The notes under the pieces: model-generated
What the model saw: only the letters and a program-made list of their open reading frames with translations
Databases searched by the model: none
What the model was told of the DNA's origin: nothing
Shown: piece by piece, positions 5,747 to 34,050 of the stretch
Layout: each line of letters begins with the position of its first letter
Numbering within the stretch: position 1 is the first letter of the stretch
Assembly: GCA_030693205.1 (NCBI GenBank)
Contig: JAUYBG010000006.1
Coordinates: 68,015-132,014 of the forward strand
DNA from: a bacterium
Lineage (GTDB): Bacteria > Patescibacteriota > Minisyncoccia > JAHIHE01
Direction: 5' to 3'
DNA length: 64,000 nt
Position numbers and translations under genes: made by a program

Positions 5747-5941
5747 TTATGGAGGGCCTTTTGACACTTCGTGTTTTTCACGCAATATGCGGAATTTTTC
5801 CTCAGAAAACTCTTTTATACATTTATTGCATTGAAACGGCGCTCCTTTTACGCCTGAAGGGTTCTTGATTATTATCCCTCCGTGGCATTTATCGCTGTCA
5901 CAAGGCACACCTGTGACGGCTTGTTCCGCCGGAACAAACAT
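5747..5941 (-). CDS. small Cys-containing (zinc-ribbon-like) protein
   Basis: Start taken at MFVPAEQ; motifs PCDSDKCHGG and FQCNKC. Confidence 0.35.
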   Translation of the reverse strand: MFVPAEQAVTGVPCDSDKCHGGIIIKNPSGVKGAPFQCNKCIKEFSEEKFRILREKHEVSKGPP

Positions 5942-6111
5942 ACTTATTATTAACACTTGATTCACCTCTGAATATATTATAATAAAAAGTTCATAAAAAA
6001 TCAACCCCACTATATATTATTGCAAAGCCATAGATTTAAAAAAAATAAACCATTAAAAAGCGGCTCGATATCATCTCGCCGCTTGCCAATATGATTTTTA
6101 TTCCAATTTTT

Positions 6112-19597: not shown

Positions 19598-20173
19598 ATG
19601 ACGTCAATAACAATCAACCTTATTATCAAAAATCCGGGAAAATTACTTGCCGCTAAAAACGCATTTAGTAAATATGGAATTTTAATAAACCAAATTAATA
19701 AAGAATTCCCCGAAATTCAAGCGGACACAAGCTTGGAAATAGCTAAATATACAGCAATACAAGCTGCTAAAGAATTTAAAATGCCTATGATCAGAGAAGA
19801 CCACAGTATGTTTATAAACGCACTAGGCATTCCCGGTCCATACGCAAATTTTATAGAAAAACATCTGCCAGTTGAAAAATTATTGAAAATTCTTAAGACC
19901 CAAAAAGACAGAAGCGGCTATATGGAAGTTGCAACTGTTTTTGCTGAACCAAACGGCTTTACTTTAGAATATATGTACAAAGTACCTATTTATTTTGAAA
20001 ATAAAATTAATATTCCTGACCCGAAAAATGGCTGGAGCGGAATTATCAGACTCGCAAACGAAACAAGAACATTAACAGAATACCCTGAAGAAGAACGAGT
20101 GAATATATGGAATAAAAATTATATTTCTATCGCTGAATTCTTAATTAAAAATAAAGAAAAATATTTAAAATAA
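19598..20173 (+). CDS. Ham1/RdgB-like non-canonical purine NTP pyrophosphatase
   Basis: NPGKLLAAKNAF, EDHSM and ALGIPGPY blocks resemble the ITPase family. Confidence 0.55.
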   Translation: MTSITINLIIKNPGKLLAAKNAFSKYGILINQINKEFPEIQADTSLEIAKYTAIQAAKEFKMPMIREDHSMFINALGIPGPYANFIEKHLPVEKLLKILKTQKDRSGYMEVATVFAEPNGFTLEYMYKVPIYFENKINIPDPKNGWSGIIRLANETRTLTEYPEEERVNIWNKNYISIAEFLIKNKEKYLK

Positions 20174-20866
20174 TTTTAACATCTCGTTAACCCAATTATA
20201 AACACTTGGATACTTTTTCCACAAACGACTACCTTGTAAAATCAAATCTTTATGATCTGGATAACCGATATTTTTTATTTTTCCATGCAAAGAAATAAAA
20301 TCTTCAGTATCTTGGATTACAGCATTAAACACTTCTGCCATACCCCATAACTTTCCTTGTTCAGTATCCATCTTTCTAGTCTCGGGAAAGTTTTTTTGCA
20401 CAAAATCATAAAATATAAAATGGAGCATTTCGTGAAAAATAGTAAAAAGCTGAAAACTGCGATTATTATAAATAAAAACCTGAAACTCACCTGAATCAAG
20501 AAAACGAGGACAAAAATCAAATATAGAAAAATCGCCAATATATTTTTTCCTTGGCCACGGATACCCATTAAATAACTTACTTACCACTAAAAAGAAATTA
20601 TTTTGTTCTTGATTAATATATTTAATAGTATTTTCACTAAGAATTTTTATTTCTCTGTTATTAGATTTATAAAAATCTATAATGTATTTATTTAAAAATT
20701 TCTTTGGATTTTCAGCTGATTTAATTTCAATAAGTTTCGGATGATACTTCAAAGCTCTTTCCTTCCAAAAATCACACCCTCCAAAATTTGAGCTAAGGTA
20801 AAAATCCCAAGCTTTGACTTGATCTAGTTTTTGATCAAATTTTAATTTTATAATTGGTTGCTTCAT
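20165..20866 (-). CDS. HExxH-motif protein (putative zinc metallopeptidase-like) downstream of radical SAM enzyme A
   Basis: HEMLH motif (TIFHEMLHFIF); same strand, 80 nt after rSAM A. Confidence 0.45.
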   Translation of the reverse strand: MKQPIIKLKFDQKLDQVKAWDFYLSSNFGGCDFWKERALKYHPKLIEIKSAENPKKFLNKYIIDFYKSNNREIKILSENTIKYINQEQNNFFLVVSKLFNGYPWPRKKYIGDFSIFDFCPRFLDSGEFQVFIYNNRSFQLFTIFHEMLHFIFYDFVQKNFPETRKMDTEQGKLWGMAEVFNAVIQDTEDFISLHGKIKNIGYPDHKDLILQGSRLWKKYPSVYNWVNEMLKLF

Positions 20867-20947: not shown

Positions 20948-22336
20948 TTAACTAACCTGCGCTTGCTTATAAAGATCCCAAACAAGCCATTCGAGCGTCA
21001 TTTTCGCATGTACGCAAAAGCGTTTATCGAGTGCCCAAATAGAACCCTCTTCAAGCTCTGCTTGATATGGACAGCCTCCACCACAAATACCTAAAGCAGG
21101 GCAGCTTTGACATTCCGGCATATTCAGAGGCGATCTCATACTCCATTCTCTGAAATCTTTATCATTGCTGATATTAAAGTCGTTGTCGTAGACATTTGTT
21201 GGGAAATATTTCTTTTTACCAACAAACCCATGGCAAACTCCAATATCTCCATCAGGTGCAATCACTATCTGATTGCCCCCAGTTGCTCCGCAGTCAAATG
21301 GCCAAACTGTCTTTTCGATAAAAGCATTCGCTTTTCTCATTATGCGATCTTCGTAGACGCCTCTTTTTCTAAAAACTTGAAAAGCATCAAGAATAAATTT
21401 TGCCGCTCTTTCGTTGTAACCATTATCCATTTTTCCGTCATTACTAATCAGCAGATTTAATCCTAAATTGGATATTCCGCATTCATCCAGTAAAACCCGT
21501 ATGGTAGCGTCGAAATCACGGATACTTGCCTCTGAAAGAGTGCATGACGCACCGATATTCATACCTGCTTCTTTGCAAACCTGAAAGCCTCTTTTGATGT
21601 CTTGATAAACGGGCTCTCCGCTTGCATAGATCCGGCTGGAGTTAGTTGCAAAGTCATCGCCGTCAATTGATATTGAGACCTGAACATCGTGGCTCTTAAG
21701 CATTCTGGCAATCTCGTGATTTAATAAACTTCCATTAGTCACTAGATTAAGGGTTGTTTTTTTGGGAAGCTTACCACTTTCCATGTACTTTTTAATCTTA
21801 TTTAAAAGCATCTCAAGTACTGTCCAATTCAACAAGGGCTCTCCGCCATAAAAAACAATTGTTTTTTCTAGATCAAACTGTTCAGGATCTTCTGCAATTA
21901 ATCGACAAAAGAAATCAAGTCCTTTAAAAGCTATCTCCTCTGTCATATTACCCATGGGATTATTATTTTTTACAAAACAATAACCGCAACGGAAATTACA
22001 CCTTTCTGTTAGGATGACATAGGCTAAGTGGGGATAAGGCTTGCCAAGCAAATCCATGAAATAATCAATAGCTTTTTTATCTTCTGCGGGATCCTGGATC
22101 AAAACTTTTACATTTTTAAGGGCATCAACCGCTCTTAAAAAAGTTTCTTGATCTTTTGAGCCAACAAGCGCGAGTAGGCTTTGCGAATCAGCGCCTCCCT
22201 CAAATTTCTTAATTATCGGCAGAAGCGCATCCGGAATATAAACTGGCATCATCCGAAGAGAATGATAGCAAGCTATTACAGGTTTTTGCTCAAAAAAATG
22301 AGCGTATCTTGAAAGGAAAAGGGTTGTTCTTTCCAT
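20948..22336 (-). CDS. radical SAM/SPASM peptide-modifying enzyme A with an N-terminal RRE-like domain
   Basis: CNFRCGYC (CxxxCxxC); C-terminal SPASM cysteines (CGATGGNQ...CHGF...CQSCPALGICGGGCPYQ); AGGAGG ahead of the ATG. Confidence 0.8.
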   Translation of the reverse strand: MERTTLFLSRYAHFFEQKPVIACYHSLRMMPVYIPDALLPIIKKFEGGADSQSLLALVGSKDQETFLRAVDALKNVKVLIQDPAEDKKAIDYFMDLLGKPYPHLAYVILTERCNFRCGYCFVKNNNPMGNMTEEIAFKGLDFFCRLIAEDPEQFDLEKTIVFYGGEPLLNWTVLEMLLNKIKKYMESGKLPKKTTLNLVTNGSLLNHEIARMLKSHDVQVSISIDGDDFATNSSRIYASGEPVYQDIKRGFQVCKEAGMNIGASCTLSEASIRDFDATIRVLLDECGISNLGLNLLISNDGKMDNGYNERAAKFILDAFQVFRKRGVYEDRIMRKANAFIEKTVWPFDCGATGGNQIVIAPDGDIGVCHGFVGKKKYFPTNVYDNDFNISNDKDFREWSMRSPLNMPECQSCPALGICGGGCPYQAELEEGSIWALDKRFCVHAKMTLEWLVWDLYKQAQVS

Positions 22337-22433: not shown

Positions 22434-22577
22434 TTACCATAGCGATTTATCTATGCCCTTGTTGTATCTACATGCGCACTTACACGCACATGTACCACAT
22501 TTGGCTGCATGTACAGTATTTGCAGCATTACCTAGCACCTTAGCGGCATCTACCGCTGTTGGCGAAATAACATCCAT
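22434..22577 (-). CDS. candidate precursor peptide A (47 aa, five Cys)
   Basis: Unannotated ORF MDVISPTAVDAAKVLGNAANTVHAAKCGTCACKCACRYNKGIDKSLW; AGGAGG nine nt upstream; 97 nt upstream of rSAM A. Confidence 0.55.
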   Translation of the reverse strand: MDVISPTAVDAAKVLGNAANTVHAAKCGTCACKCACRYNKGIDKSLW

Positions 22578-22595: not shown

Positions 22596-22684
22596 GTTTT
22601 AAAAGAACTCATCTGGCTAAATAGCTTCTATTTAGCCATCCTTCCTTGAGCACAACTCTAACAAATCCGGGAGTTTTGTCAATG
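22596..22684 (-). promoter_or_regulatory. conserved promoter plus 5'-UTR hairpin element, copy A
   Basis: Minus-strand TTGACA-16nt-TAGAGT, then a 10-bp-stem hairpin ggctaaatag/ctatttagcc and agatgagttcttttaaaa before the SD; copies at 29237-29322 and 31934-32019. Confidence 0.5.
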
Positions 22685-24562: not shown

Positions 24563-25984
24563 TTATGGATTAACGTTGATCTGAACTCTATCCATAATAG
24601 GACCGTAACAACCATTCTTACTAGTTATTCTTAACCACCCCTCATACTTACCAGCTGCCGCATATGTCGTCGATGTCATACCTCCAGTATATGTTACATC
24701 AAATAATGCATTACCGAGAACACCTAAAACACCAAGTAATAAATCACAATTCGTTGTTTCACTTTTTGCATAATCTGATGTCCATCCTAACCATGGGGTA
24801 GTATAATCGATCTCATATCTATCTACCCCGTTATCAAAACCCGGACCATCACTGAGAACATCGGTTTTTAAATTTGGATAAGCATAGTCCGCTGAATAAG
24901 TTCTTCCATCGAAATAAACAGTTTCACCCACTTTAACGCTTACTTGTTTTCCCATAGGCATAAAAGTTGTCCCTACCCTTAAATCCGCTTTCATACAATG
25001 ATACAACCCATCGCTTGCCCAAGACGGATTTGAACAAATATCTTTGCAGGCAAGCTTTCCCGAAACAAAAATTTTCGCCGGATGTCGCGGGTAATCGGTT
25101 GCGATGCAGGCAGGAACTCCGGTAGCGGTAAAATTTACTACATTACTGGCAATAAAAGTTGAGCTGGAATACGGATCAGTTTCCGGAAAAATCGCCTGAA
25201 GTTTTACATCATCGGCACAAAATGTAGGAAGCGTAGACAAAATAGAAAAAATACCGCTAGCGTTCGTTTGTATTTGAGTATATCTCATTCCATCAATTCC
25301 TGCCCCATCATTAATAACATATACTCTTATATTGGTGTTAACCACGGGATTACCGCTTGCATCAGTAAGCTTCCCTGCCAGAGTTACAGAAGCGCCAACA
25401 GCCGCGGATGCTCCGTCTGCGGGAGAGGTTAAAGTGATTTTAGCGGGAGCATTAGGACTGACAAAAACATCTGCTTCCATATTATCTATGCAATGGCACG
25501 GCGCATTAACTGTTCCATTTCCCAATGAACCGGGTCCATCGCACATCTCAAGCGGATCGCTTGCCGTCGGACTATAACCTACCGCACTCCACGGCATCGC
25601 CGGATTTTTAAGCACTAGAATATCGGGGTTGATCGTGTTAATAATCACCCAAGAAGAAATGGCCAGAAGAAGGCCGATAATTGCCGAATTAATCGTGTGT
25701 TTGGCATCTTCGATGGCTGAAGGATTGCCGGCGGAAGTCAGATATCTTGCGCCCCCGATGACGATCGCGCCCATCGCCACAATACCGACTACGGAAATAA
25801 GAAAAGTATAAAGCCCGGAAAGATAGACTTGAACTTTTGCGCCGGGTGGAATGCCGGGAATAGTGACCAAAGCGTTATAAGTTGTCTGAGCTAAAGCGGA
25901 ATTCGAATAAAAAAATAAGCTTAGTAAAAATATAATGCTAGCTAAAACTATTTTTTTGTTTTTGCTAAAAATTTTTAAAATCAT
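24563..25984 (-). CDS. large secreted/membrane protein with an N-terminal TrbC/VirB2-like (T4SS pilin-like) domain
   Basis: Signal peptide; YLSGLYTFLISVVGIVAMGAIVIGGARYLTSAGNPSAIEDAKHTINSAIIGLLLAISSWVI pattern typical of CPR pilin-like proteins; large extracellular C-terminus. Confidence 0.45.
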   Translation of the reverse strand: MILKIFSKNKKIVLASIIFLLSLFFYSNSALAQTTYNALVTIPGIPPGAKVQVYLSGLYTFLISVVGIVAMGAIVIGGARYLTSAGNPSAIEDAKHTINSAIIGLLLAISSWVIINTINPDILVLKNPAMPWSAVGYSPTASDPLEMCDGPGSLGNGTVNAPCHCIDNMEADVFVSPNAPAKITLTSPADGASAAVGASVTLAGKLTDASGNPVVNTNIRVYVINDGAGIDGMRYTQIQTNASGIFSILSTLPTFCADDVKLQAIFPETDPYSSSTFIASNVVNFTATGVPACIATDYPRHPAKIFVSGKLACKDICSNPSWASDGLYHCMKADLRVGTTFMPMGKQVSVKVGETVYFDGRTYSADYAYPNLKTDVLSDGPGFDNGVDRYEIDYTTPWLGWTSDYAKSETTNCDLLLGVLGVLGNALFDVTYTGGMTSTTYAAAGKYEGWLRITSKNGCYGPIMDRVQINVNP

Positions 25985-26014: not shown

Positions 26015-26172
26015 TTATACAATTATTGGGGTTTTTAGACAAGCGTGAACTATATATTTTCCCAAATTTTATCTTTATCTTTATCTTCCTGCCGCACCGG
26101 CAAAATTACGGTAAAAGTCGAGCCTTTACCTTCCCCTTCCGAGATTACCTTAATTTTTCCGTGACAGTACTT
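26015..26172 (-). pseudogene. histidine kinase 3'-end fragment, copy 1
   Basis: DNA-level homology to the last ~50 codons of the HK gene at 32065-34050 (cctgccgcaccggcaaaattacggtaaaagtcgagcc...); the +strand track ORF 26026-26220 is a wrong-strand artefact. Confidence 0.5.
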
Positions 26173-26850
26173 TTATTTTTTCTTTCCAATAATAATTACT
26201 CGCCGACTATTAATATTTAATTTCTCCATATCATAATTTCCATATACTGAAGATATGAATAAGTTATTATCGTTAAACTTTCTTTTAAGTTCTGGAAAAG
26301 TATAATACCTTACTCCTTTATTACTATGATCTTTGTCTACGACAAGCTCCATCTTGGTAAAATCAAATTTATATGGAGCTTTCGGATTTTCTCTTAAATA
26401 GCCGATAACCCTAAATACATTATCGCAGTCCAGTAAAAACATTCCATTCTTTTCCATTATTTTAGTAATATTTTTCAATGTTTCGTCAGGCTCAATCATT
26501 CTAAGATCAGAAAAAAATAAGAATATTTTATTATACTTTTTTTTAAGATCTAATTTATGAATATCCTGTGTAAAAAAATTTATCTCTAAATTTTCTTGTT
26601 TGGCGTGCTTTTTGGCAACCTCGATCAAATAATCGGAAAAATCCAAACCATCAATATTATATCCTCTTTTTTTAAGCTCAATAGTATGCCGTCCGTTACC
26701 GCAAGCAACATCTAATATCTTGTCTCTCTTTTTTAATTTTAAGGATTTAATAAGAAAATCAACGTCTTTTTGCAGCTGTTCCGGGGAAAAATATTCTTTA
26801 TGCTCTTCTAGATAAGAACCTTTTGGACCATAATACCGTTTTAGACTCAT
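26173..26850 (-). CDS. class I SAM-dependent methyltransferase
   Basis: Motif I (ILDVACGNGRH) and post-I acidic residue. Confidence 0.8.
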   Translation of the reverse strand: MSLKRYYGPKGSYLEEHKEYFSPEQLQKDVDFLIKSLKLKKRDKILDVACGNGRHTIELKKRGYNIDGLDFSDYLIEVAKKHAKQENLEINFFTQDIHKLDLKKKYNKIFLFFSDLRMIEPDETLKNITKIMEKNGMFLLDCDNVFRVIGYLRENPKAPYKFDFTKMELVVDKDHSNKGVRYYTFPELKRKFNDNNLFISSVYGNYDMEKLNINSRRVIIIGKKK

Positions 26851-26864
26851 AATTTTATTTATAA

Positions 26865-27608
26865 TTATATTTTTACTCCAACAATAATCATTCTCTTGCT
26901 GTTAAAATCAAAATTCTCTCCTTCATAAGATCCATAAACTTTTTTTATCCTTAAACCATTTTCTTCTAAGATTTTTTTAATTTCTGGAAAAGAATACAGT
27001 CTTAAAATATATTCGGATTTTTTTTGTTTTCCTTTTTCTGTAATTTTTAGTTTTACATGGTCTTGGAAAGTAATTGGATTAAAAGCATGATTTTCCAAAA
27101 TATTTTTTTTACCATTTTTGTATTTAAAAACACTTTTAAAATGAGATAAAAAATAACAAATATTCCGAGTGTCAATTATAAATTTCCCTTTACGATTTAA
27201 TGATTTAGAAATATTTTCAATAATTTTTCTGTTGTCGCTATCGCTAAAATATCCGAATGAAGTAAAAAGATTAAGAATAACATCAAATCTTTTTTTAAAT
27301 AAAAACTTACAAATATCCCCATAAATAAAATCTGCTTTAACGCCTTTTTCTTTGGCAATATTTTTTCCAACTCTTAAAAAAGGTTTTGAATAATCAATGC
27401 CCACCACATTATATCCTCTTTCTGCTAATCCAATCATATGTCTGCCCCAGCCACAACATAAATCTAAAATTTTGTCTTCTTTTTTTAATCTTAAAATATT
27501 AATGATAAAATCAATTTCTTTTTTGGTTCTCTTGTCGTCAAAAAGAAAATAATAAAGCTCTAAATAATCTTTATTAAAATAGTATTTCCACCAATTATTT
27601 TTAATCAT
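26865..27608 (-). CDS. class I SAM-dependent methyltransferase, paralog of 26173-26850
   Basis: ILDLCCGWGRHMIGLAERGYNVVGIDYS. Confidence 0.8.
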   Translation of the reverse strand: MIKNNWWKYYFNKDYLELYYFLFDDKRTKKEIDFIINILRLKKEDKILDLCCGWGRHMIGLAERGYNVVGIDYSKPFLRVGKNIAKEKGVKADFIYGDICKFLFKKRFDVILNLFTSFGYFSDSDNRKIIENISKSLNRKGKFIIDTRNICYFLSHFKSVFKYKNGKKNILENHAFNPITFQDHVKLKITEKGKQKKSEYILRLYSFPEIKKILEENGLRIKKVYGSYEGENFDFNSKRMIIVGVKI

Positions 27609-27681: not shown

Positions 27682-27707
27682 AACTGTAAAATTTGAATTT
27701 TACAGTT
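27682..27707 (-). terminator. hairpin plus T-rich tract at the stop of rSAM B
   Basis: aactgtaaaat/attttacagtt perfect inverted repeat. Confidence 0.35.
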
Positions 27708-29025
27708 ATAAACTTTTTAAATTCCAGCAAGTCTGATCGGCATGAACATCATCGCCAAATTTTGACATAGATATTCCCTTGCATCCTCCATTGCACGACA
27801 AAGAAAATTTACATACTAGACATTCTTGTACTATATCCATCGAAAACGGATTTGTTTTTTCCCAAATCGAACGGATATTATTATTCGTCAAATTTCCTAA
27901 AACCGGAAGTCGCGAATGTGGACAAGGAGTAATTTTTCCGTCGAAAGTTATATTACAAATACTTCTTCCTGCTTCACATCCTCTTATTGCTTTTATAGAT
28001 TGATCTATAAGAAAAGGAAAAAATACCAATTTCTCGTAAGAAATCATTTTGGGGTATTTTTTTTCTAACAAAACCAATGTTTCGGTCGCGATTCTGAGTT
28101 GGTCGCTTGTTAATTTAGAAAGAGAATTTGCTCTTCCTTCTTGCATACATCTAAAAGCAATAAACCAGTCTATTCCTAAATCATAAACAGCTAAAAATGT
28201 TTCTTCTATTTTATCAAAGTTTAGATTATTAACCGTCATTGCGCAGCGAACATTCATTCCCTGATTTTTAAGAATCGTAATCGCTCTAATGGCTTTTTCG
28301 TATACTCCTTTTCCTCGAATAAAATCGTGTATCGTTTCTGGACCATCAATGCTTACTTGAATTACCGATAAACCTGTTCTCGATAGTTTTGCCGCTCTTC
28401 TTTTAGTTACCAATATTCCATTGGTGCTAAGCGAAACGCTGACACCTTCTTTCGTTGCTCTTTCGATTATTTCATCAAGGCAACAGACAAGCAATGGCTC
28501 TCCGCCACCAAGACCAAGATAGAATATTCCATTATCCAATAGCTGCTTTTCTATCGCAAATATTTGCTCTGCAGATAAAGCATTTTTTGTTAAACCAGAT
28601 CCTGTATAGCAATGCTTGCATCTTAAATTACAAAGATCAGTTAATTCCCAAAAAACTATTGAAGGGAATTTTAATTTGGGAAATACAATAGGTTTATCGT
28701 CTGTATTATTGGAAAATTTTTTAGTTGATAATATTATGCGTCTATTACAGCTATCAAATAAACCAATTTCTCCAATCTGATTTACGAAAGCAATAATTGT
28801 TTCATCGTTTATATTTTTATGCCTTCTTTTTATTTCCTGAACAATGTCACTAAGACTGATTTCTCCTGTGCATAATTCTATAATTTCTATTCCAATTTTA
28901 TTTACCCGAAAACATATTTGATCAGTTTCTATGGCTAGCTCTACTGGCGGTTTAACTAATCCACCAAAATTTTCTCTGCGATGGCGTACCCCTTTTGTCA
29001 AGTGTGGCTTAAAATCTTGTTCCAT
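27706..29025 (-). CDS. radical SAM/SPASM enzyme B with an N-terminal PqqD-like RiPP recognition element
   Basis: N-terminus (VNKIGIEIIELCTGEISLSDIVQEI) is PqqD-like; CNLRCKHC; SPASM C-terminus (CLVCKFSLSCNGGCKG). Confidence 0.8.
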   Translation of the reverse strand: MEQDFKPHLTKGVRHRRENFGGLVKPPVELAIETDQICFRVNKIGIEIIELCTGEISLSDIVQEIKRRHKNINDETIIAFVNQIGEIGLFDSCNRRIILSTKKFSNNTDDKPIVFPKLKFPSIVFWELTDLCNLRCKHCYTGSGLTKNALSAEQIFAIEKQLLDNGIFYLGLGGGEPLLVCCLDEIIERATKEGVSVSLSTNGILVTKRRAAKLSRTGLSVIQVSIDGPETIHDFIRGKGVYEKAIRAITILKNQGMNVRCAMTVNNLNFDKIEETFLAVYDLGIDWFIAFRCMQEGRANSLSKLTSDQLRIATETLVLLEKKYPKMISYEKLVFFPFLIDQSIKAIRGCEAGRSICNITFDGKITPCPHSRLPVLGNLTNNNIRSIWEKTNPFSMDIVQECLVCKFSLSCNGGCKGISMSKFGDDVHADQTCWNLKSL

Positions 29026-29111: not shown

Positions 29112-29219
29112 CTAATCTCCGGCATAAGTTGGGAGCATTACGCATCCTGTAGATATCCTTTCTATTACTGGACTTTCTTGCTCCGAATCTTTCTCTGTCT
29201 TAGAATTTTCTAAACCCAT
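29112..29219 (-). CDS. candidate precursor peptide B (35 aa)
   Basis: MGLENSKTEKDSEQESPVIERISTGCVMLPTYAGD; gaggaggtgaaaaaATG; hairpin ggaattattg/caataattcc between it and rSAM B. Confidence 0.5.
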   Translation of the reverse strand: MGLENSKTEKDSEQESPVIERISTGCVMLPTYAGD

Positions 29220-29236: not shown

Positions 29237-29322
29237 TTTTAAAAGAACTCATCTGGCTAAATAGTTTCTATTTAGCCATCCTTCCTTGCGTATAACCCTA
29301 GCAAATCCAGGGGTTTTGTCAA
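29237..29322 (-). promoter_or_regulatory. conserved promoter plus 5'-UTR hairpin element, copy B
   Basis: TTGACA-16nt-TAGGGT and the same hairpin, with loop tttc instead of gctt. Confidence 0.5.
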
Positions 29323-29334
29323 ATACTGACTCCC

Positions 29335-29580
29335 GCTGATTACTTATATTGGGGTTTTTAGACAAGCACGAACTATATATATTCCCAAATTTTATCTTTA
29401 TCTTCCTGCCGCACCGGCAAAATTACGGTAAAAGTCGAGCCCGCGCCTTCCCCTTCCGAGACCACCTTAATTTTTCCGCCATGCTTGGCTATGATCTGCT
29501 TGGCGATAAAAAGTCCCAGGCCGGAACCGTTCGGATTGATATAATTGGATTTTTTCCCGCGTGAAAATTTTTGAAAAATC
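29335..29580 (-). pseudogene. histidine kinase 3'-end fragment, copy 2
   Basis: ~240 bp homologous to the last ~75 codons of HK 32065-34050 (ATP-lid to C-terminus), with the stop region mutated. Confidence 0.55.
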
Positions 29581-30332
29581 TATTTTAGACCACCTTTCCA
29601 TTCCTTTTCTAATTCTTCGATCGATTTTTCGAAACCATTTTCAATAATTTTTAAATTTTCCTCGGAATTATTTAATCGCGACAATCTTTGGTAAGTTTTT
29701 TTAAACTTATCCCATCCGTAAGTATTGATTAAAAATCTGACAAAAGAGCCAACTTCCGGATAAATTATTTTAGAATCAACCTTTTCCCAATTTTTATTAT
29801 CAATTAAGTTTTTGATAGAATACAGTTTTTTCTGACTCAATAACTCTTTGGAAATTATATCAATATCCTTACCGAATAAATTTCCTTCCATAAACTGAGC
29901 TAATCCCTCGCAAAACAAATATATCGATAACCCAAGGGATAAAGACAAAAAATGAGTATCTTCATGCTCGCCGATAAACTGGCATTTATCATTATAAATC
30001 GTATGAATTTCAAATTTGTTTGTTTTTGGTTCGCTATTAACTAATTCAAAATCTCCCCAAATCACATTACCAGGGCTGTCATCGCCCATTAAAGATGCTT
30101 TGCTTTTTAAGGACGGATAAATATAATAATGAATAATTTGCTTATTTTTTAAATCAAGAAACGATAAAATTTTATTGTGATGTTTTTCTTTTAGCTTAAT
30201 AATTTTATAAATATCATTTTCAGCTAAAGAATTTTTGAGATAGTAAAAAACATAATGGTTGCTTTTTTGTTTAATCCATTTTTGCCTCAAATAATCGTTT
30301 TTATACCACGGAATTTCTTGTTTTATTTTCAT
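29580..30332 (-). CDS. HExxH-motif protein downstream of radical SAM enzyme C
   Basis: IGEHEDTHF motif; 250 aa; directly after rSAM C. Confidence 0.45.
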   Translation of the reverse strand: MKIKQEIPWYKNDYLRQKWIKQKSNHYVFYYLKNSLAENDIYKIIKLKEKHHNKILSFLDLKNKQIIHYYIYPSLKSKASLMGDDSPGNVIWGDFELVNSEPKTNKFEIHTIYNDKCQFIGEHEDTHFLSLSLGLSIYLFCEGLAQFMEGNLFGKDIDIISKELLSQKKLYSIKNLIDNKNWEKVDSKIIYPEVGSFVRFLINTYGWDKFKKTYQRLSRLNNSEENLKIIENGFEKSIEELEKEWKGGLK

Positions 30333-30406
30333 ATTGATATATTAGCTTAAATATTATACCAAACAATAAAAAAATTAGCCATTATTGTGTTTAAATGGCT
30401 ATAGCT

Positions 30407-31909
30407 TTATTCAAAGTTTAATTTTACTAATCCCTTATTTATTTTTTCCACAAGTTCACGCCTGCAATATGGTTCTAATAGACTACCTATTGTTACATAG
30501 GCATCAAACCGACATCCTCCGCCACAAATAGGAACGAACGGGCAATCTTCTGAAAGACATTTATCCAGATAGCTAAAATCCATAAATTTTGCATCATCGG
30601 TATTAGCCGTTGAATCTATGTTTCCAAAAGAAAATCCATCTCTTCCTACTGTGCTTATGCATTTAAGCAATGCTCCGTCTGGCTCTATTGTAGCCGAATT
30701 TATAGCTCTCGCGGTACACCAAGGACCGACTAAATATTCTTGAGGAATTACAAATCCTCTTTTCTTTGCTTCCTTGCAAAGCCACAGATATTTATCAGCG
30801 CTCTCGCTAAAACTTAATCCAAATTCATTAAGGTAAGAGTCCGGCGCTCGCTTGCCCATATCTCCGCAAATAGTTGGAGCCACTATACCAAAAGAGAATT
30901 CTATTTTATCCTGCAGTTTATTTTCTGCCAAAAAATCAAACAGCTGCGGTATTAAATCAACATTCTGCCGGTCAAAATTGACTCTAAGGTGAATTTTTTT
31001 AACAAAACCTTGATTTATAGAACTCAAGATATTTTTTGAAATTTTATCAAATGTACCCTTGCCGTCTTTTCTGAACCTTCTTAAGTCGTGTACTTTTCCG
31101 TATCCATCAAGAGTTATCTGAACTCTATCAAGGTTGCATCCGTTTAAGAAAGAGGCAATTTCTTTATCAAAAAATTCACCATTTGTCATTATGCCGAGTT
31201 CAAGTGCTAAGTTTTTTTGCTTGGCTATCGTGTGCAGTTTTGGCAAAATAAATCTGATTGTCTTTTTATTCAATAACGGCTCGCCCCCGTACAGAACTAC
31301 TCTTAGCTTATTGCAACCAGCATGGTTACCTAGATAAGCATCACACCAATTCACTATTTCATCGGCTATTTGAATTGACATTGATTTATGTTTTTCTATT
31401 CCTCTCTCGAAACAGTAAGGGCAGGCCAGCTGGCAATTTCTAGTAAGGACAAGATATATTCCGAAAGTTTTATCATCCAATCTGGCCTTATGGAATAGCT
31501 CTTTGTATTTTAGCTTTTCGTTTAATTCCGCAGGAACGAGCATTTCCATTTTTACGAGCTCATTTATGTAATCGCCTAAATACGAACCAGTAATATTAGA
31601 TTGTCCATTGTTTGTAATTTCATCGATTTCTCTTTTTAGCCGTCCGGTTAATCTTACTGTGCTTGTAGTCAGCGTATTTCTAGCGATGATTTTATCGCTG
31701 TTTTCATATTCAATCCAAAACACAAATCGAGACCATTTCAGTTTCACATCGTTCACCTCTTTGTCATTGATATATTTTTGGGGAAGTTTTATTAAACCTC
31801 CCCCTTTGCTTATGCGGTTAATAACCGCAGCCATCTTTACCCATATCGCCGGTACGGGTTCCGGAATCAGTGCCTTTTTGGAGCACTTCAAAATCTTGGT
31901 TGCCGTCAT
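30407..31909 (-). CDS. radical SAM/SPASM enzyme C
   Basis: CQLACPYC; SPASM (CLSEDCPFVPICGGGCRFD). The track start (31909) overlaps candidate precursor C; the true start may be M26 (31834) or similar. Confidence 0.75.
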   Translation of the reverse strand: MTATKILKCSKKALIPEPVPAIWVKMAAVINRISKGGGLIKLPQKYINDKEVNDVKLKWSRFVFWIEYENSDKIIARNTLTTSTVRLTGRLKREIDEITNNGQSNITGSYLGDYINELVKMEMLVPAELNEKLKYKELFHKARLDDKTFGIYLVLTRNCQLACPYCFERGIEKHKSMSIQIADEIVNWCDAYLGNHAGCNKLRVVLYGGEPLLNKKTIRFILPKLHTIAKQKNLALELGIMTNGEFFDKEIASFLNGCNLDRVQITLDGYGKVHDLRRFRKDGKGTFDKISKNILSSINQGFVKKIHLRVNFDRQNVDLIPQLFDFLAENKLQDKIEFSFGIVAPTICGDMGKRAPDSYLNEFGLSFSESADKYLWLCKEAKKRGFVIPQEYLVGPWCTARAINSATIEPDGALLKCISTVGRDGFSFGNIDSTANTDDAKFMDFSYLDKCLSEDCPFVPICGGGCRFDAYVTIGSLLEPYCRRELVEKINKGLVKLNFE

Positions 31910-31916
31910 TGCTCAT
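31818..31916 (-). CDS. candidate precursor peptide C (32 aa)
   Basis: MSNDGNQDFEVLQKGTDSGTRTGDMGKDGCGY; the same gaggaggtgaaaaaATG context as precursor B. Confidence 0.45.
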   Translation of the reverse strand: MSNDGNQDFEVLQKGTDSGTRTGDMGKDGCGY

Positions 31917-31933
31917 TTTTTCACCTCCTCAAA

Positions 31934-32019
31934 TTTTAAAAGAACTCATCTGACTAAATAGCTTCTATTTGGTCATCCTTCCTTACAATAACCTTAACAA
32001 ATCTCAATAATTTGTCAAT
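31934..32019 (-). promoter_or_regulatory. conserved promoter plus 5'-UTR hairpin element, copy C
   Basis: TTGACA-16nt-TAAGGT; hairpin gaccaaatag/ctatttagtc (one mismatch). Confidence 0.5.
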
Positions 32020-32064: not shown

Positions 32065-34050
32065 CTATCTTCCCTGCCGCACCGGCAAAGACACGATAAA
32101 AGTCGAACCTTTGCCTTCCCCCTCCGAGATTACTTTGATTTTTCCGTGATGCTTAGCTATGATCTGCTTGGCGATAAAAAGTCCCAGGCCGGAACCGTTC
32201 GGATTGATATAATTGGATTTTTTCCCGCGGGAAAATTTCTGAAAAAGAATTTTTTTATCATCCCCGCTCAAGCCTATGCCCGTATCAGTAAAATAAATAT
32301 TCACGTTATCTTTCTCCCGCTTAACTTCAATAATCAATCCGCCTTTTTCGGTATATTTTTCTGCGTTATCTATTAAGTTCATAAAAACATTGTGAAGAAG
32401 CTTTTCGTCAGCTTCGATCTTCGGAATCTTCTGGGAAGATCTTTTGTATTTCAAATATAAATTCTTTTTTTTGAAATTAAGATTAAGCATTTCGATATTT
32501 TCCTGAAGCATCTTCCGTATATCAATTGGCTGAAAATTCAATTTTAACTCCCCTTCGCTTTCCGTCGCTGTCACCATATCGTTGACGATATTGTTAAGAC
32601 GCTCTGTATTATCCACGATTCTCGCTTTTACTTCCAACTTTTTTTCCGGAGTAGCTTTGTCAAAATCCTTGGCATTCCACATTGAAATAAATCCCCGCAT
32701 TACAGTCAAGGGAGTCCTAAGCTGGTGAGAGACGATATGTAAAAAATCACTCTTCACATCCAATGCGTTTTTAAGCTTGTCTTTGGCTATAGTAAGCTCT
32801 TCGATATTTTTATTCAAATTTTGATAAAATTGAAGGTTATCCATAACTACGCTTACATGCTGGGTAAAAGCATTGATTAGATCTAAATCTCTCGGGCTGA
32901 CTTCCGTAATTTCTTTGGTAAAAATAAAAATCAAAGCTCCTTTTTTCTCGCCTCTGATTGTCATTGGAACCGATGCGAATGTTTTTCCGCCAAGTTTCTC
33001 TTGTATCAATAGGGACGTGGGCTTATCCAACGGCGGACAAATAAAATCCGCTATGTTCGACCCTTTTTCAATTTCGTTATTGAGAATACTTTTGATAACC
33101 AGACCGCAATTTTTAGAATTTTTGCTATCAACAATCAAGCTGTAATCGCTTAATTCAGGCTTAGATAATAAACACCTTGCTTGCCTCATTTTATCTGATT
33201 CTGTGGTAATATAAGCGCAAGCTTTTCCACTATCTTCATCGTAGCGAATTAAAAATGTTCCCATAATACCAAGATGCCCGAGTTTTGCCGGCACAGCATC
33301 CATAATATTCTGCACGCTTTTTTCAATTTCCACTCCCAAAGAAACCATTTTGTTTAAAGACAGAAGGGATTCCAAATCCTGCGTTTTTTCCTCAAGATTT
33401 TTTAATTGATTTCTAATTTGTTCGTATTGACGAATATTATTGATTGCAATAGCCACTTGATCAGAAAAAGTTTTAAGCATTTCCTGCTCTTCTTGAGAAA
33501 ATTCTTTTCTGGTTGAGGTAAAGAATACTACTCCCAAAATTTTGTCTAAAAATATAACAGGAAGAGAAATACAAAGATTCATGCCCATAAATTTCTGCAT
33601 AGTATCAGCCAATGATGCATTTACAGCGGGACTGATAAATTCACTCATATGTGCCCCTACATGAATTTTTCTTGTAAGGTAAGTTTGTACGGTTAAATTA
33701 TCATCAAGATTTAATGGGTAAGTGTGTTCTTTGAATGGCTTATTCAGCCATCCGACAACTTTTTGGCCTAAATATGATTGCGTATAAGACCAAGGTATAA
33801 GTTGCTTATTAATTTCGTCAGGTAAAAACAACACTCCTCCTATGAAATCCATCTCTTCAACCATAACGTTCACCATCTTTTGGGTCAATGCTTCATAATC
33901 TTTGATAGTAACAAGCATAGAGAATATTTTCTGCAAAGTCTTGTAGCGCATCTCTTTTGAGGTTGGTTTTTCTACAAGTCTACCTTTAAATCTATCGGTA
34001 TCAATGTTTGGGAAGATAAGCTTTCTTATTATACCTTGGATTAAGTTCAT
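32065..34050 (-). CDS. cytoplasmic sensor histidine kinase (GAF-GAF-HisKA-HATPase)
   Basis: H-box HQLRTPL; N, G1, G2 boxes (NLIDNAEKYT, DTGIGLS, GSGLGLFIAKQII); no TM segments. Confidence 0.85.
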   Translation of the reverse strand: MNLIQGIIRKLIFPNIDTDRFKGRLVEKPTSKEMRYKTLQKIFSMLVTIKDYEALTQKMVNVMVEEMDFIGGVLFLPDEINKQLIPWSYTQSYLGQKVVGWLNKPFKEHTYPLNLDDNLTVQTYLTRKIHVGAHMSEFISPAVNASLADTMQKFMGMNLCISLPVIFLDKILGVVFFTSTRKEFSQEEQEMLKTFSDQVAIAINNIRQYEQIRNQLKNLEEKTQDLESLLSLNKMVSLGVEIEKSVQNIMDAVPAKLGHLGIMGTFLIRYDEDSGKACAYITTESDKMRQARCLLSKPELSDYSLIVDSKNSKNCGLVIKSILNNEIEKGSNIADFICPPLDKPTSLLIQEKLGGKTFASVPMTIRGEKKGALIFIFTKEITEVSPRDLDLINAFTQHVSVVMDNLQFYQNLNKNIEELTIAKDKLKNALDVKSDFLHIVSHQLRTPLTVMRGFISMWNAKDFDKATPEKKLEVKARIVDNTERLNNIVNDMVTATESEGELKLNFQPIDIRKMLQENIEMLNLNFKKKNLYLKYKRSSQKIPKIEADEKLLHNVFMNLIDNAEKYTEKGGLIIEVKREKDNVNIYFTDTGIGLSGDDKKILFQKFSRGKKSNYINPNGSGLGLFIAKQIIAKHHGKIKVISEGEGKGSTFIVSLPVRQGR

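What the first reader, a model, noticed from the sequence alone, without database searches (positions are those of the whole stretch)
31818..31916. 32-aa precursor-like ORF overlapping the annotated start of rSAM C; the ORF-track start of the enzyme is probably wrong
MSNDGNQDFEVLQKGTDSGTRTGDMGKDGCGY is preceded by exactly the same gaggaggtgaaaaaATG context as precursor B and by the conserved promoter/UTR element. It is in a different frame from the rSAM C track start (31909) and overlaps it. The enzyme most likely begins at an internal Met (for example 31834), with a 17-nt overlap. Like precursor B it has a single Cys in a Gly-rich C-terminus (DGCGY), with Asp two residues upstream, which is reminiscent of Cys-Asp ranthionine-type or single thioether links.
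Basis: partly seen in the sequence, partly recalled or inferred. Interest (0 to 1): 0.65.

Follow-up and report, generated by a model that had tools for sequence, protein, structure and literature searches.

The report
Hidden precursor peptide before radical-SAM enzyme
A real 32-codon gene for a small peptide (ending ...KDGCGY) lies in front of a radical-SAM enzyme gene whose start had been drawn 54 codons too far upstream and so covered it; peptide, enzyme and a zinc peptidase form a conserved, so far unnamed three-gene peptide-modification cassette of Patescibacteria.

Summary
On the minus strand, 31916..31818 encodes MSNDGNQDFEVLQKGTDSGTRTGDMGKDGCGY. It follows the same 17-nt RBS/ATG context as precursor B and one of three copies of a promoter plus 50-nt leader.

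The peptide gene is real. Homologous peptides sit directly upstream of homologous enzymes (32-83% identity) in more than 20 independent loci. A profile search found 37 called peptides, all "hypothetical". D-x-C is invariant, L and G lie at fixed leader positions, and substitutions are biased to third codon positions.

The track start of rSAM C (31909) is wrong, and so is NCBI's 494-aa call. Homologues start M-K-L-K-W-S, which is GTG 31747 behind GAGGTG. That gives a 446-aa enzyme and a 70-nt spacer with a conserved hairpin, with no overlap.

The enzyme is a CteB-like rSAM/SPASM maturase that falls below every NCBIfam family cut-off. A 250-aa HExxH gluzincin peptidase always follows it.

My best reading is a new precursor/maturase family within the known rSAM RiPP class. 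The chemistry is untested; a Cys30 thioether, possibly to Asp28, is inferred.

The shared 5' leader folds as a covarying, k-turn-like hairpin with no Rfam match.

The parts
32013..32018 (-). -35 box TTGACA of the precursor promoter
   Evidence: Sequence read. The box is conserved in all three copies in the window and in 9 further loci at a fixed distance from the leader. The consensus scanner did not list it because the -10 is weak.
31991..31996 (-). -10 box TAAGGT (TAnnnT) with TGt directly upstream (extended -10); 16-nt spacer
   Evidence: The paralogous copies have TAGAGT and TAGGGT at the same place. Promoter function is inferred and not shown.
31939..31984 (-). 5' leader hairpin with k-turn-like internal loop. 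Layout: AAGGAA-G-GA-[TGACCAAATAG aag CTATTTAGTCA]-GAT-GA-G-TTCTTT. It starts 34 nt after the start of the -35 box, close to the predicted 5' end of the mRNA.
   Evidence: The same architecture, with different and compensating stems, is found in 12 instances of 9 or more sequence types. There is no Rfam match.
31922..31930 (-). Shine-Dalgarno GAGGAGGTG, 5 nt before the ATG
   Evidence: It is identical in front of precursor B.
31818..31916 (-). Precursor peptide gene, 32 aa plus stop: MSNDGNQDFEVLQKGTDSGTRTGDMGKDGCGY. The leader motif is FEVLxKG and the invariant core is D28-G-C30.
   Evidence: Syntenic homologues; profile hits with E values of 3e-13 to 1e-6 against 5.8 billion proteins; differences at codon positions 1/2/3 of 203/100/576.
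31780..31803 (-). Stable hairpin GGGGAGGTTT-aata-AAACTTCCCC between the precursor and enzyme genes, probably a processing, stability or attenuation element. Here it is followed by an A-run rather than a T-run.
   Evidence: Folding gives -24 kcal/mol with z = -4.35 for the 83-nt spacer. A hairpin sits at the same place in L161, L163, L164, L165 and L168; in L165 and L168 it is followed by a T-run.
31754..31759 (-). Shine-Dalgarno GAGGTG of the enzyme gene, 6 nt before GTG 31747
   Evidence: The same AGAGGTGA context precedes the start in L161 and L164.
30407..31747 (-). Radical SAM/SPASM peptide maturase ('rSAM C') with corrected start: 446 aa beginning (V->M)KLKWSRFVFW
   Evidence: N-termini of homologues. 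CefB and FlmE/OhkG profiles begin at residue 3. CX3CX2C (C105, C109, C112) and seven SPASM cysteines are invariant. The AF2 model has pLDDT 88 and its best fold match is CteB, E = 1e-21.
29580..30332 (-). 250-aa HExxH (HEDTH...E) gluzincin-type metallopeptidase, the candidate leader peptidase
   Evidence: It lies directly downstream of the enzyme in every locus that has the precursor. H123, E124, H127 and E142 are invariant. The AF2 model has pLDDT 95.7, and its fold matches the catalytic domains of M9 collagenase and M1 aminopeptidases. Pfam Peptidase_MA_2 scores 30.5 bits against a cut-off of 32.4.

Best explanation
The ORF 31916..31818 (minus strand) is a genuine gene for a ribosomally made precursor peptide. 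It is the first gene of a three-gene cassette: precursor, then radical SAM/SPASM maturase (true start GTG 31747, 446 aa), then a gluzincin metallopeptidase (30332..29580).

Shown:
- The gene is conserved at the protein level.
- The three-gene order is strict.
- The enzyme start is corrected.
- The enzyme has the CteB-type architecture: an N-terminal domain, a CX3CX2C core and a seven-Cys SPASM domain.
- The peptidase has an intact HExxH...E site.

Inferred mechanism:
- The conserved leader segment ([FL]-[EQ]-[VI]-L-x-x-G, with L and G nearly invariant) docks on the N-terminal recognition domain of the enzyme.
- The enzyme uses a 5'-deoxyadenosyl radical and its auxiliary clusters to modify the invariant D-x-C core near the C-terminus. 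The most likely product is a thioether from Cys30 to a neighbouring carbon, with Asp28 as the best candidate.
- The peptidase then removes the leader.

Transcription starts at a TTGACA/extended -10 promoter. The mRNA begins with a conserved k-turn-like hairpin that is shared with two unrelated rSAM peptide clusters in the window, which suggests common control. A hairpin after the precursor gene probably sets the precursor-to-enzyme ratio.
For: Gene reality:
- Identical RBS context and leader as the paralogous clusters.
- Homologous peptides lie directly upstream of enzymes of 32-83% identity in L001, L003-L006, L008, L009, L081, L084, L086-L090, L100 and L161-L169.
- A profile search found 37 called peptides with E values down to 3e-13.
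- D and C are invariant, and L and G are nearly invariant at fixed spacing.
- Differences are biased to the third codon position, 203/100/576.
- The differences from L161 in the C-terminal 17 codons are all synonymous (read).

Enzyme start.

Enzyme class:
- Pfam Radical_SAM, E = 4.5e-16.
- Best NCBIfam hits are all Cys-peptide maturases: CefB, geopeptide, TIGR04463, Clo7bot and PapB.
- The closest solved structure is the thioether synthase CteB, by sequence (E = 2e-18) and by fold (E = 1e-21 over the whole length).
- The cysteines are invariant.

Peptidase.

Regulatory RNA.
Against: - No expression, mass-spectrometry or activity data exist, so every mechanistic step is inferred.
- The Pfam SPASM and PqqD models do not hit this enzyme. 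The SPASM assignment rests on the Cys pattern and the fold.
- The window peptide has a single Cys. Known CteB/PapB-type substrates have several Cys, and in PapB and QhpD substrates the acceptor lies C-terminal to the Cys, whereas here Asp is 2 residues N-terminal. An upstream acceptor has a precedent in NxxC peptides, from my own knowledge.
- There is no exporter or immunity gene in the conserved cassette.
- Four relatives (L007, L082, L083, L085) have no small ORF next to the enzyme; a larger gene ends there instead.
- One called peptide has Tyr in place of the Cys (P0152).
- The precursor in L163 is frameshifted in an A-run.
- A terminator-like hairpin and a TGnTATAAT box between the enzyme and peptidase genes suggest the peptidase may be transcribed separately.
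Confidence: 0.8

Rival explanations
1. The cassette makes a small redox cofactor or other intracellular small molecule from the peptide C-terminus, as mycofactocin (MftA ...CGVY) and PQQ are made, rather than a secreted bioactive peptide.
For: - The C-terminal ...[KQL]DGCGY-stop is kept even where the enzymes are only 32-35% identical (L086, L089, L100).
- The resemblance to the MftA C-terminus IDGMCGVY is from my own knowledge.
- The conserved unit has no transporter or immunity gene.
- The peptidase has no visible signal peptide (sequence).
- The hosts are genome-reduced Patescibacteria.
Against: - The MftC model TIGR03962 is not among the 25 best families for this enzyme. All of those 25 score 49 bits or more, and the MftC cut-off is 265. 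It is rSAM B that hits the MftC model.
- There are no homologues of MftB, MftD, MftE or MftF in the cassette.
- Several family members do not end in GY...KDSCCISRA...KDGCCHAYRVSK...KDSCCGSRY. The C-terminal Tyr is therefore not universal, while D-x-C is.
Confidence: 0.15
2. The enzyme does modify this peptide, but the chemistry is not a Cys thioether. Alternatives are a C-C or C-O cross-link to Tyr32 or Lys27, epimerisation, or oxidation of Cys to a formylglycine-like residue.
For: - The SPASM maturases nearest in fold also include non-thioether enzymes: TigE, anSME, SuiB and ChlB.
- The enzyme is below every NCBIfam family cut-off, so its function cannot be transferred from a named family.
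- K-D-G-C-G-Y resembles the streptide K-G-D-G-W core (my own knowledge).
Against: - Lys27 is replaced by Leu or Gln, and Tyr is absent, in some members. Cys and Asp are invariant in the 14-sequence alignment.
- The nearest families and the nearest structure are Cys-dependent thioether synthases.
Confidence: 0.3
3. The small ORF is a chance ORF or a purely regulatory leader peptide, and the enzyme really carries the long N-terminal extension (500 or 494 aa) as in the ORF track and the NCBI annotation.
For: The frame is open from 31909. NCBI annotates a 494-aa protein (P0001). One homologue is annotated at 482 aa (P0038).
Against: - The extension is not conserved in any homologue.
- In most loci the in-frame open stretch upstream of the conserved start is only 5-26 codons.
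- The extension of P0038 is the out-of-frame reading of that genome's own precursor gene.
- The small ORF is conserved as protein, with third-position bias.
Confidence: 0.02

Closest known systems
Ranthipeptide/SCIFF systems: CteB (PDB 5WGG/5WHY) and PapB-type rSAM/SPASM thioether synthases
   Same: - A small precursor gene lies immediately upstream of a rSAM/SPASM maturase of about 450 aa.
- The enzyme has an N-terminal recognition domain, a CX3CX2C core and a seven-Cys SPASM domain.
- CteB is the best match by sequence and by fold.
- A Cys in the core is essential by conservation.
   Different: - The enzyme scores 93 bits on the SCIFF maturase model (cut-off 425) and 124 bits on PapB (cut-off 340).
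- The precursor has one Cys, or two in close relatives, rather than six.
- There is no CX3D repeat; the conserved acid lies 2 residues upstream of the Cys.
- A dedicated gluzincin peptidase is part of the cassette.
NCBIfam Cys-peptide maturase families: CefB (NF038107), geopeptide maturase (TIGR04280), TIGR04463 and Clo7bot (TIGR04334)
   Same: These are the best-scoring profiles, at 144-202 bits and nearly full length. Profile position 1 aligns to residue 3 of the corrected protein.
   Different: All scores are far below the family cut-offs of 400-600 bits. The cognate precursors of those families are Cys-rich repeats and unrelated to ...KDGCGY. No NCBIfam or Pfam model matches the peptide.
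Mycofactocin (MftA/MftC)
   Same: A short peptide whose conserved part is the extreme C-terminus with Cys-Gly-(Val)-Tyr, modified by a rSAM/SPASM enzyme and processed by a peptidase.
   Different: The enzyme belongs to a different subfamily. There is no Val-Tyr, no MftB chaperone gene and no MftD/E/F genes. Some members lack the terminal Tyr.
Kink-turn RNA motifs (box C/D-like; bound by L7Ae, YbxF or YlxQ)
   Same: The leader has the k-turn layout: helix, 3-nt bulge ([GA]AU), tandem G.A/A.G, then a second helix. The bulged strand reads RAUGAG, like box C RUGAUGA.
   Different: It sits at the 5' end of mRNAs for peptide precursors in Patescibacteria. No binding protein is identified, kinking is not shown, and there is no Rfam family. 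A loosely defined k-turn pattern occurs 133 times in 1.1 Mb by chance.

Membership tests
Radical SAM superfamily | CX3CX2C cluster motif and a Radical_SAM domain | tested here: met
   PF04055, E = 4.5e-16. C105, C109 and C112 (CQLACPYC) are invariant in 20 homologues.
SPASM-domain peptide maturases | C-terminal seven-Cys motif (CX9-15GX4C ... CX2-4CX5CX3C ... C) for two auxiliary [4Fe-4S] clusters | tested here: met
   C344-X13-G-X4-C363, C397-X4-C402-X5-C408-X3-C412 and C428 are all invariant. The model matches the SPASM enzymes CteB, TigE, anSME and SuiB in fold. Caveat: the Pfam SPASM HMM itself gave no hit for this enzyme.
SPASM-domain peptide maturases | N-terminal RiPP recognition element (PqqD-like winged helix) | tested here: inconclusive
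   The model has a beta/alpha domain at residues 1-95 before the core, and the Foldseek alignment to CteB spans the whole length. No PqqD Pfam hit was found, and peptide binding was not tested.
SCIFF/ranthipeptide (ScfB/CteB, TIGR03974) | Enzyme reaches the family HMM cut-off; precursor has six Cys in about 45 residues | tested here: not met
   93 bits against a cut-off of 425. The precursor has one Cys.
PapB-type ranthipeptide (NF047865) | Enzyme reaches the HMM cut-off; precursor has CX3D/E repeats | tested here: not met
   124 bits against a cut-off of 340. The only acid/Cys pair is D-G-C, with the acid upstream.
CefB Cys-every-fifth system (NF038107) | Enzyme reaches the HMM cut-off; precursor has Cys at every fifth residue | tested here: not met
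   202 bits against a cut-off of 600. The precursor is unrelated.
Mycofactocin system | MftC equivalog HMM; precursor ending in GVY; mftB/D/E/F neighbours | tested here: not met
   TIGR03962 is absent from the 25 best families for rSAM C, all of which score 49 bits or more; its cut-off is 265. The peptide ends in CGY. The neighbours are only a gluzincin peptidase and unrelated genes.
RiPP precursor gene (generic) | Short ORF adjacent to and co-oriented with its maturase, conserved across genomes, with a conserved recognition segment and a conserved modified core | tested here: met
RiPP precursor gene (generic) | The peptide is translated and post-translationally modified | not testable with these tools
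   This needs MS of the co-expressed peptide, or proteomics.
Gluzincin (clan MA(E)) metallopeptidase | HExxH plus a downstream Glu as third zinc ligand, on the thermolysin-like catalytic fold | tested here: met
   H123-E-D-T-H127 and E142 are invariant in 21 sequences. The fold matches M9 and M1 catalytic domains with E = 4e-5 to 1e-3. Pfam Peptidase_MA_2 scores 30.5 bits, just under the cut-off of 32.4.
Kink-turn RNA | C helix, 3-nt bulge, tandem sheared G.A/A.G, NC helix | tested here: inconclusive
   All 12 instances fit the sequence pattern, and both helices covary. The generic pattern is common by chance. Sheared pairs, kinking and protein binding cannot be tested here.

The most novel reading that the evidence does not exclude
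The ...[KQL]-D-[GS]-C-(G-Y) peptides, their dedicated rSAM/SPASM enzyme and the gluzincin peptidase define a new RiPP or peptide-derived cofactor class, found almost only in Patescibacteria-labelled MAGs. Its chemistry at the invariant Asp-x-Cys, and at the C-terminal Tyr in most members, has not been described. In this genome it is co-regulated with two unrelated rSAM peptide clusters through a new k-turn-type 5' leader riboregulator, possibly under the adjacent GAF histidine kinase.
Probability: 0.3. Interest if true: 0.75.

Novelty: new variant of a known kind. Interest (0 to 1): 0.55.

Why it matters
1. Annotation. The ORF track (500 aa), the NCBI record (494 aa, P0001) and at least one other public record (P0038, 482 aa) all extend the enzyme over the precursor gene in another frame. 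The substrate gene of this cassette is therefore hidden in several public genomes. The correction rule is simple: the enzyme starts at M-x-L-K-W-S.

2. Biology. The cassette is a compact, strictly conserved three-gene peptide-modification system in genome-reduced Patescibacteria, organisms with few known natural products. Its precursor family and enzyme subfamily match no NCBIfam or Pfam model, and I found no paper on it. The tiny invariant core (D-x-C near the C-terminus) makes the chemistry easy to test by heterologous expression.

3. Regulation. One promoter-plus-leader module with a covarying k-turn-like hairpin drives three unrelated rSAM peptide clusters in this window and homologous cassettes in other genomes. 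This points to a shared and so far undescribed control element.

Tried and rejected
It has no SD and is not supported by any homologue.
- The long N-terminal extension was rejected.
- NCBIfam and Pfam scans of the peptide and of four relatives or paralogues gave nothing for precursor C. Only precursor A weakly hit the FibroRumin target model.
- Rfam gave nothing real for the leader: the whole window at gathering threshold, a 401-nt E-value scan, and seven related loci.
- Literature searches found nothing on this family. Terms tried: DGCGY; radical SAM+RiPP+Patescibacteria; ranthipeptide+candidate phyla radiation; SPASM+Parcubacteria; OhkG/FlmE/CefB.
- MAFFT alignments of the leader (A5, A7) put the 5' strand out of register. 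I therefore did not build a covariance model or run the count of structure pairs, and I parsed the structure by script instead.
- A generic k-turn pattern scan showed that the architecture alone is not statistically special: 133 hits in 1.1 Mb.
- The consensus promoter scanner did not list the TTGACA/TAAGGT promoter.
- A hammerhead-like reading of CUGAUGAG was considered and dropped: the order of elements is wrong and Rfam gives no hit.
- The first profile search failed because the first sequence was under 40 aa. It was repeated with a reordered alignment.
- A Pfam scan of ten further ORFs of the window found no response regulator and no L7Ae-type protein among them.
Full report
**1. What is in the sequence**

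The finding lies on the minus strand. Read 5'->3' on that strand, the region contains these elements:
- TTGACA at 32018-32013.
- A 16-nt spacer ending in TGt.
- TAAGGT at 31996-31991.
- A 46-nt hairpin at 31984-31939, 6 nt further on.
- The Shine-Dalgarno GAGGAGGTG at 31930-31922.
- ATG at 31916, followed by 32 codons (MSNDGNQDFEVLQKGTDSGTRTGDMGKDGCGY) and TAA ending at 31818.
- A 70-nt spacer with a strong hairpin at 31803-31780.
- GAGGTG at 31759-31754.
- GTG at 31747, from which the radical-SAM reading frame runs to 30407.

That reading frame happens to stay open upstream to ATG 31909, which gives the 500-aa "track" ORF. This ORF overlaps the small ORF by 92 nt in another frame.

**2. Is it more than chance?**

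A 32-codon ORF alone is not evidence: there are 153 ORFs of at least 25 aa in 16 kb. The context is evidence.
- The 17-mer GAGGAGGTGAAAAAATG occurs exactly twice in the window, here and before the 35-aa ORF upstream of rSAM B. The expected number is 0.03.
- A 50-nt leader occurs three times (expected 0.00), each time behind a TTGACA box and in front of a small ORF followed by a radical-SAM gene.

**3. Comparative evidence that the peptide gene is real**

Relatives of the enzyme were fetched from genome and metagenome collections and from assemblies. A homologous small ORF sits directly upstream of the enzyme gene in L001, L003-L006, L008, L009, L081, L084, L086-L090, L100 and L161-L169. The enzymes in these loci are 32-83% identical to rSAM C. 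Examples:
- MDAENFEFEVFHIGKDSGTRTGDMGKDGCGY (L161)
- MDSEDLEVLEEGSDSMTRTGNMHKDGCGY (L081)
- ...DLQILEEGTDCGTRTGNVGKDGCGY (L004-L008)
- ...VLKPGKRRIIGTTKFGKDGCGY (L089)
- ...ETGDKQFRSPARLGLDGCGY (L086)
- Variants that continue after a second Cys: ...LLHKDSCCISRA, ...SLHKDGCCHAYRVSK, ...FGKDSCCGSRY.

In the alignment only Asp28 and Cys30 are invariant, and Leu12 and Gly15 are nearly so, at fixed spacing.

A profile of these peptides found 37 called small proteins among 5.8 billion, with E values down to 3e-13. All are "hypothetical", and many come from Parcubacteria/Paceibacterota MAGs. The window's own peptide is not among them. This fits the NCBI record, which calls a 494-aa enzyme over it (P0001).

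In the last 20 codons of 11 distinct genes, differences fall 203/100/576 on codon positions 1/2/3. The differences between the window and L161 in the C-terminal 17 codons are all synonymous (read). This is purifying selection on a protein.

**4. The true start of the enzyme**

Homologues are 440-450 aa and cover 89% of the 500-aa query. In 22 of 38 full-length homologues the Trp of the conserved W-S-[RQM]-F motif is residue 5 (M-x-L-K-W-S...), and in 36 of 38 it is residue 3-9. In the window this corresponds to GTG 31747, 6 nt behind GAGGTG.

The CefB and FlmE/OhkG NCBIfam profiles begin at residue 3 of this 446-aa protein.

In most loci the in-frame open stretch upstream of this start is only 5-26 codons. 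In L161 the precursor and the enzyme are in the same frame, separated by stops. Where assemblies called the precursor, the enzyme starts 40-70 nt after its stop.

Its alternative (ATG 31834, 17-nt overlap) is not supported: the two genes do not overlap.

The same over-extension exists in public records. P0001 is annotated at 494 aa. P0038 is annotated at 482 aa, and its extra N-terminus is the out-of-frame reading of that genome's precursor gene.

**5. The enzyme**

- Pfam finds Radical_SAM.
- The best NCBIfam profiles are all Cys-peptide rSAM/SPASM maturases: CefB 202 bits, geopeptide 187, TIGR04463 183, Clo7bot 144 and PapB 124. All are far below their cut-offs.
- CX3CX2C and seven C-terminal cysteines in the SPASM pattern are invariant.
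- The nearest solved protein is the thioether synthase CteB, by sequence (E = 2e-18) and by fold (AF2 model pLDDT 88; Foldseek E = 1e-21 over the whole length). Next come TigE, anSME, ChlB and SuiB.
- Residues 1-95 form a beta/alpha domain in front of the core, in the position of CteB's peptide-recognition domain. The PqqD HMM does not detect it, so this point stays inconclusive.

**6. The third gene**

The 250-aa ORF 30332..29580 has a homologue directly downstream of the enzyme in every locus that carries the precursor, at 36-79% identity.
- HEDxH (H123, E124, H127) and E142 are invariant.
- The AF2 model (pLDDT 95.7) matches the catalytic domains of gluzincin peptidases, namely Vibrio M9 collagenase, M1 aminopeptidases and LTA4 hydrolase.
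- It has no obvious signal peptide.
- I take it to be the leader peptidase. This is inferred.
- A hairpin with a T-run and a TGgTATAAT box lie between the enzyme and peptidase genes, so the peptidase may have its own promoter.

**7. How it most likely works**

Shown: a conserved cassette of precursor, CteB-like rSAM/SPASM enzyme and gluzincin peptidase.

Inferred:
- The leader segment around F-E-V-L-x-x-G binds the N-terminal domain.
- The enzyme modifies the D-x-C core.
- The peptidase trims the leader.

The nearest enzymes make Cys thioethers, and Cys and Asp are the invariant residues. A thioether from Cys30, with Asp28 as the favoured acceptor, is therefore the best guess, at roughly 45%. 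The orientation, with the acceptor upstream of the Cys, differs from PapB and QhpD substrates. From my own knowledge it has a precedent in NxxC peptides.

Two alternatives remain open:
- Chemistry on the C-terminal Tyr. The ending CGY recalls mycofactocin's CGVY, but the enzyme is not an MftC, the partner genes are missing, and some members lack the Tyr.
- Other SPASM reactions.

No transporter is part of the conserved unit, so an intracellular, cofactor-like role cannot be excluded.

**8. The shared leader**

The three copies in the window, and the leaders of L161, L164, L084/L008, L005, L004/L006, L165 and L168, all parse into the same layout:
- a helix of 3-6 bp
- one variable pair (G.G, G.U or G-C)
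- GA
- a capped helix of 3-11 bp
- a 3-nt bulge [GA]AU
- GA
- G
- the return strand of the first helix

The hairpin starts 33-35 nt after the start of the -35 box, which is close to the predicted 5' end of the mRNA.

Both helices show compensatory changes. One pair switches between U-A and C-G. The capped helix has entirely different sequences in different genomes. Only two non-canonical cells occur.

This is the sequence signature of a kink-turn, and the bulged strand RAUGAG resembles box C. A loosely defined pattern of this kind occurs 133 times in 1.1 Mb, so the argument rests on conservation and covariation rather than on the pattern itself.

Rfam has no match.

In the window's B and C copies, the pyrimidine strand UUCUUU can alternatively pair with the precursor's SD GAGGAG. 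This would allow a translational switch, but that is speculative.

The AUG inside the motif also opens a conserved mini-ORF, MSS[FL]K.... I cannot tell whether the mini-ORF matters.

**9. Origin of the arrangement**

The last 58 codons of the GAF histidine kinase gene (32065-34050), which ends just upstream of the promoter, are repeated as a 90%-identical remnant at 29406-29579, just upstream of cluster B's promoter. A shorter remnant lies at 26089-26163. The regulatory module was therefore copied together with a piece of the kinase gene.

L161's precursor C homologue carries the RBS context of the window's precursor A, so these modules are exchanged between clusters.

**10. Comparison with known systems, and novelty**

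The system works like a rSAM/SPASM RiPP cassette of the ranthipeptide/SCIFF kind. It fails the membership tests of every named family I could test: SCIFF, PapB, CefB, geopeptide, TIGR04463, Clo7bot and mycofactocin. Its precursor matches no model, and I found no paper on it.

I rate it a new variant of a known kind: an unnamed precursor/maturase/peptidase family whose members come mostly from MAGs labelled Patescibacteria.

**11. Verdict**

The precursor and the wrong start are right, the proposed alternative start and the overlap are wrong, and the chemistry is untested.
- Interest is moderate (0.55). It combines a clean annotation correction that recurs in public records, a compact and experimentally tractable new RiPP-type family in genome-reduced bacteria, and an undescribed structured leader shared by unrelated peptide clusters.

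Noticed in passing
window 31939-31984, 29242-29287, 22602-22647 (all minus strand); L161 5775-5820; L164 565-599; L084 2735-2765; L165 2907-2935; L168 1358-1387: The 5' leader shared by the three rSAM peptide clusters folds as a two-helix hairpin whose internal loop fits the kink-turn consensus: a 3-nt bulge [GA]AU plus tandem GA/GA. The same architecture, with compensating stem changes, occurs in front of homologous precursor genes in other Patescibacteria. It always starts 33-35 nt after a TTGAC box. Rfam has no match.
   Followed up: partly
window 31946-31926 (minus strand); L004 3758-3862; L165 upstream of 3001: The AUG inside the leader's GAUGAG opens a mini-ORF, MSS[FL]K.... It has 6 codons in window B and C and 10 in A. 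In L004 and L006 it has 34 codons and ends in an ATGA overlap with the precursor start, and by my reading of the L165 sequence it has about 24 codons and ends the same way. I cannot tell whether it is conserved as RNA, as peptide or as both.
   Followed up: no
window 29406-29579 and 26089-26163 (minus strand), compared with 32065-32240: Two remnants of the 3' end of the GAF histidine kinase gene lie upstream of cluster B and of the 473-aa gene 24563-25984. They cover 58 codons at 90% identity and 25 codons at 92% identity. The promoter region was duplicated together with part of the kinase gene. The third copy lacks the TTGACA/leader module.
   Followed up: partly
window 22434-22577 (minus strand) and 20948-22336: Precursor A (47 aa, ...CGTCACKCACRY...) weakly matches the FibroRumin target model (E = 5.5e-4). 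Its enzyme scores 386.9 bits on the FibroRumin maturase model, just under the cut-off of 400. A 233-aa HExxH (HEMLH) protein follows at 20165-20866.
   Followed up: partly
window 29112-29219 (minus strand), 27706-29025, 26865-27608, 26173-26850: Cluster B consists of a 35-aa ORF (MGLENSKTEKDSEQESPVIERISTGCVMLPTYAGD), a rSAM/SPASM enzyme and two paralogous SAM methyltransferases. The enzyme has a weak N-terminal PqqD-like hit and its best profile is mycofactocin maturase (128 bits, cut-off 265). The methyltransferases' best NCBIfam hits include the daptide methyltransferase.
   Followed up: no
window 30333-30406 (minus strand): Between rSAM C and the peptidase gene lie a hairpin AGCCATT...AATGGCT followed by T7, and then TGgTATAAT. 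This looks like a terminator plus a separate promoter for the peptidase gene. No SD is visible before its ATG.
   Followed up: no
L163 about 5860-5960: The precursor gene of the 71%-identical relative is split by a frameshift in an A-run: MDRRNHRFEVLHKGKNSG | KRTGDMGKDGCGY. This may be an assembly error, a pseudogene or slippage.
   Followed up: no
L007, L082, L083, L085, upstream of the enzyme: Four relatives (41-54% identical enzymes) have no small ORF next to the enzyme. A larger gene ending ...LKSKGHY[TI]SL or ...SKGYYMPY stops just before it instead. Their substrate may be encoded elsewhere or be that larger protein.
   Followed up: no
P0001 (NCBI, 494 aa) and P0038 (482 aa): Public annotations of this enzyme and of a homologue start too far upstream and run over the precursor gene in another frame. 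The mis-annotation therefore recurs.
   Followed up: partly
L089, L086, L010, L011, L013, L019 and others: Histidine-kinase genes lie within a few kb of the enzyme in several unrelated loci (tblastn). This hints at two-component control of these cassettes. No response regulator was found among the window ORFs I scanned.
   Followed up: no
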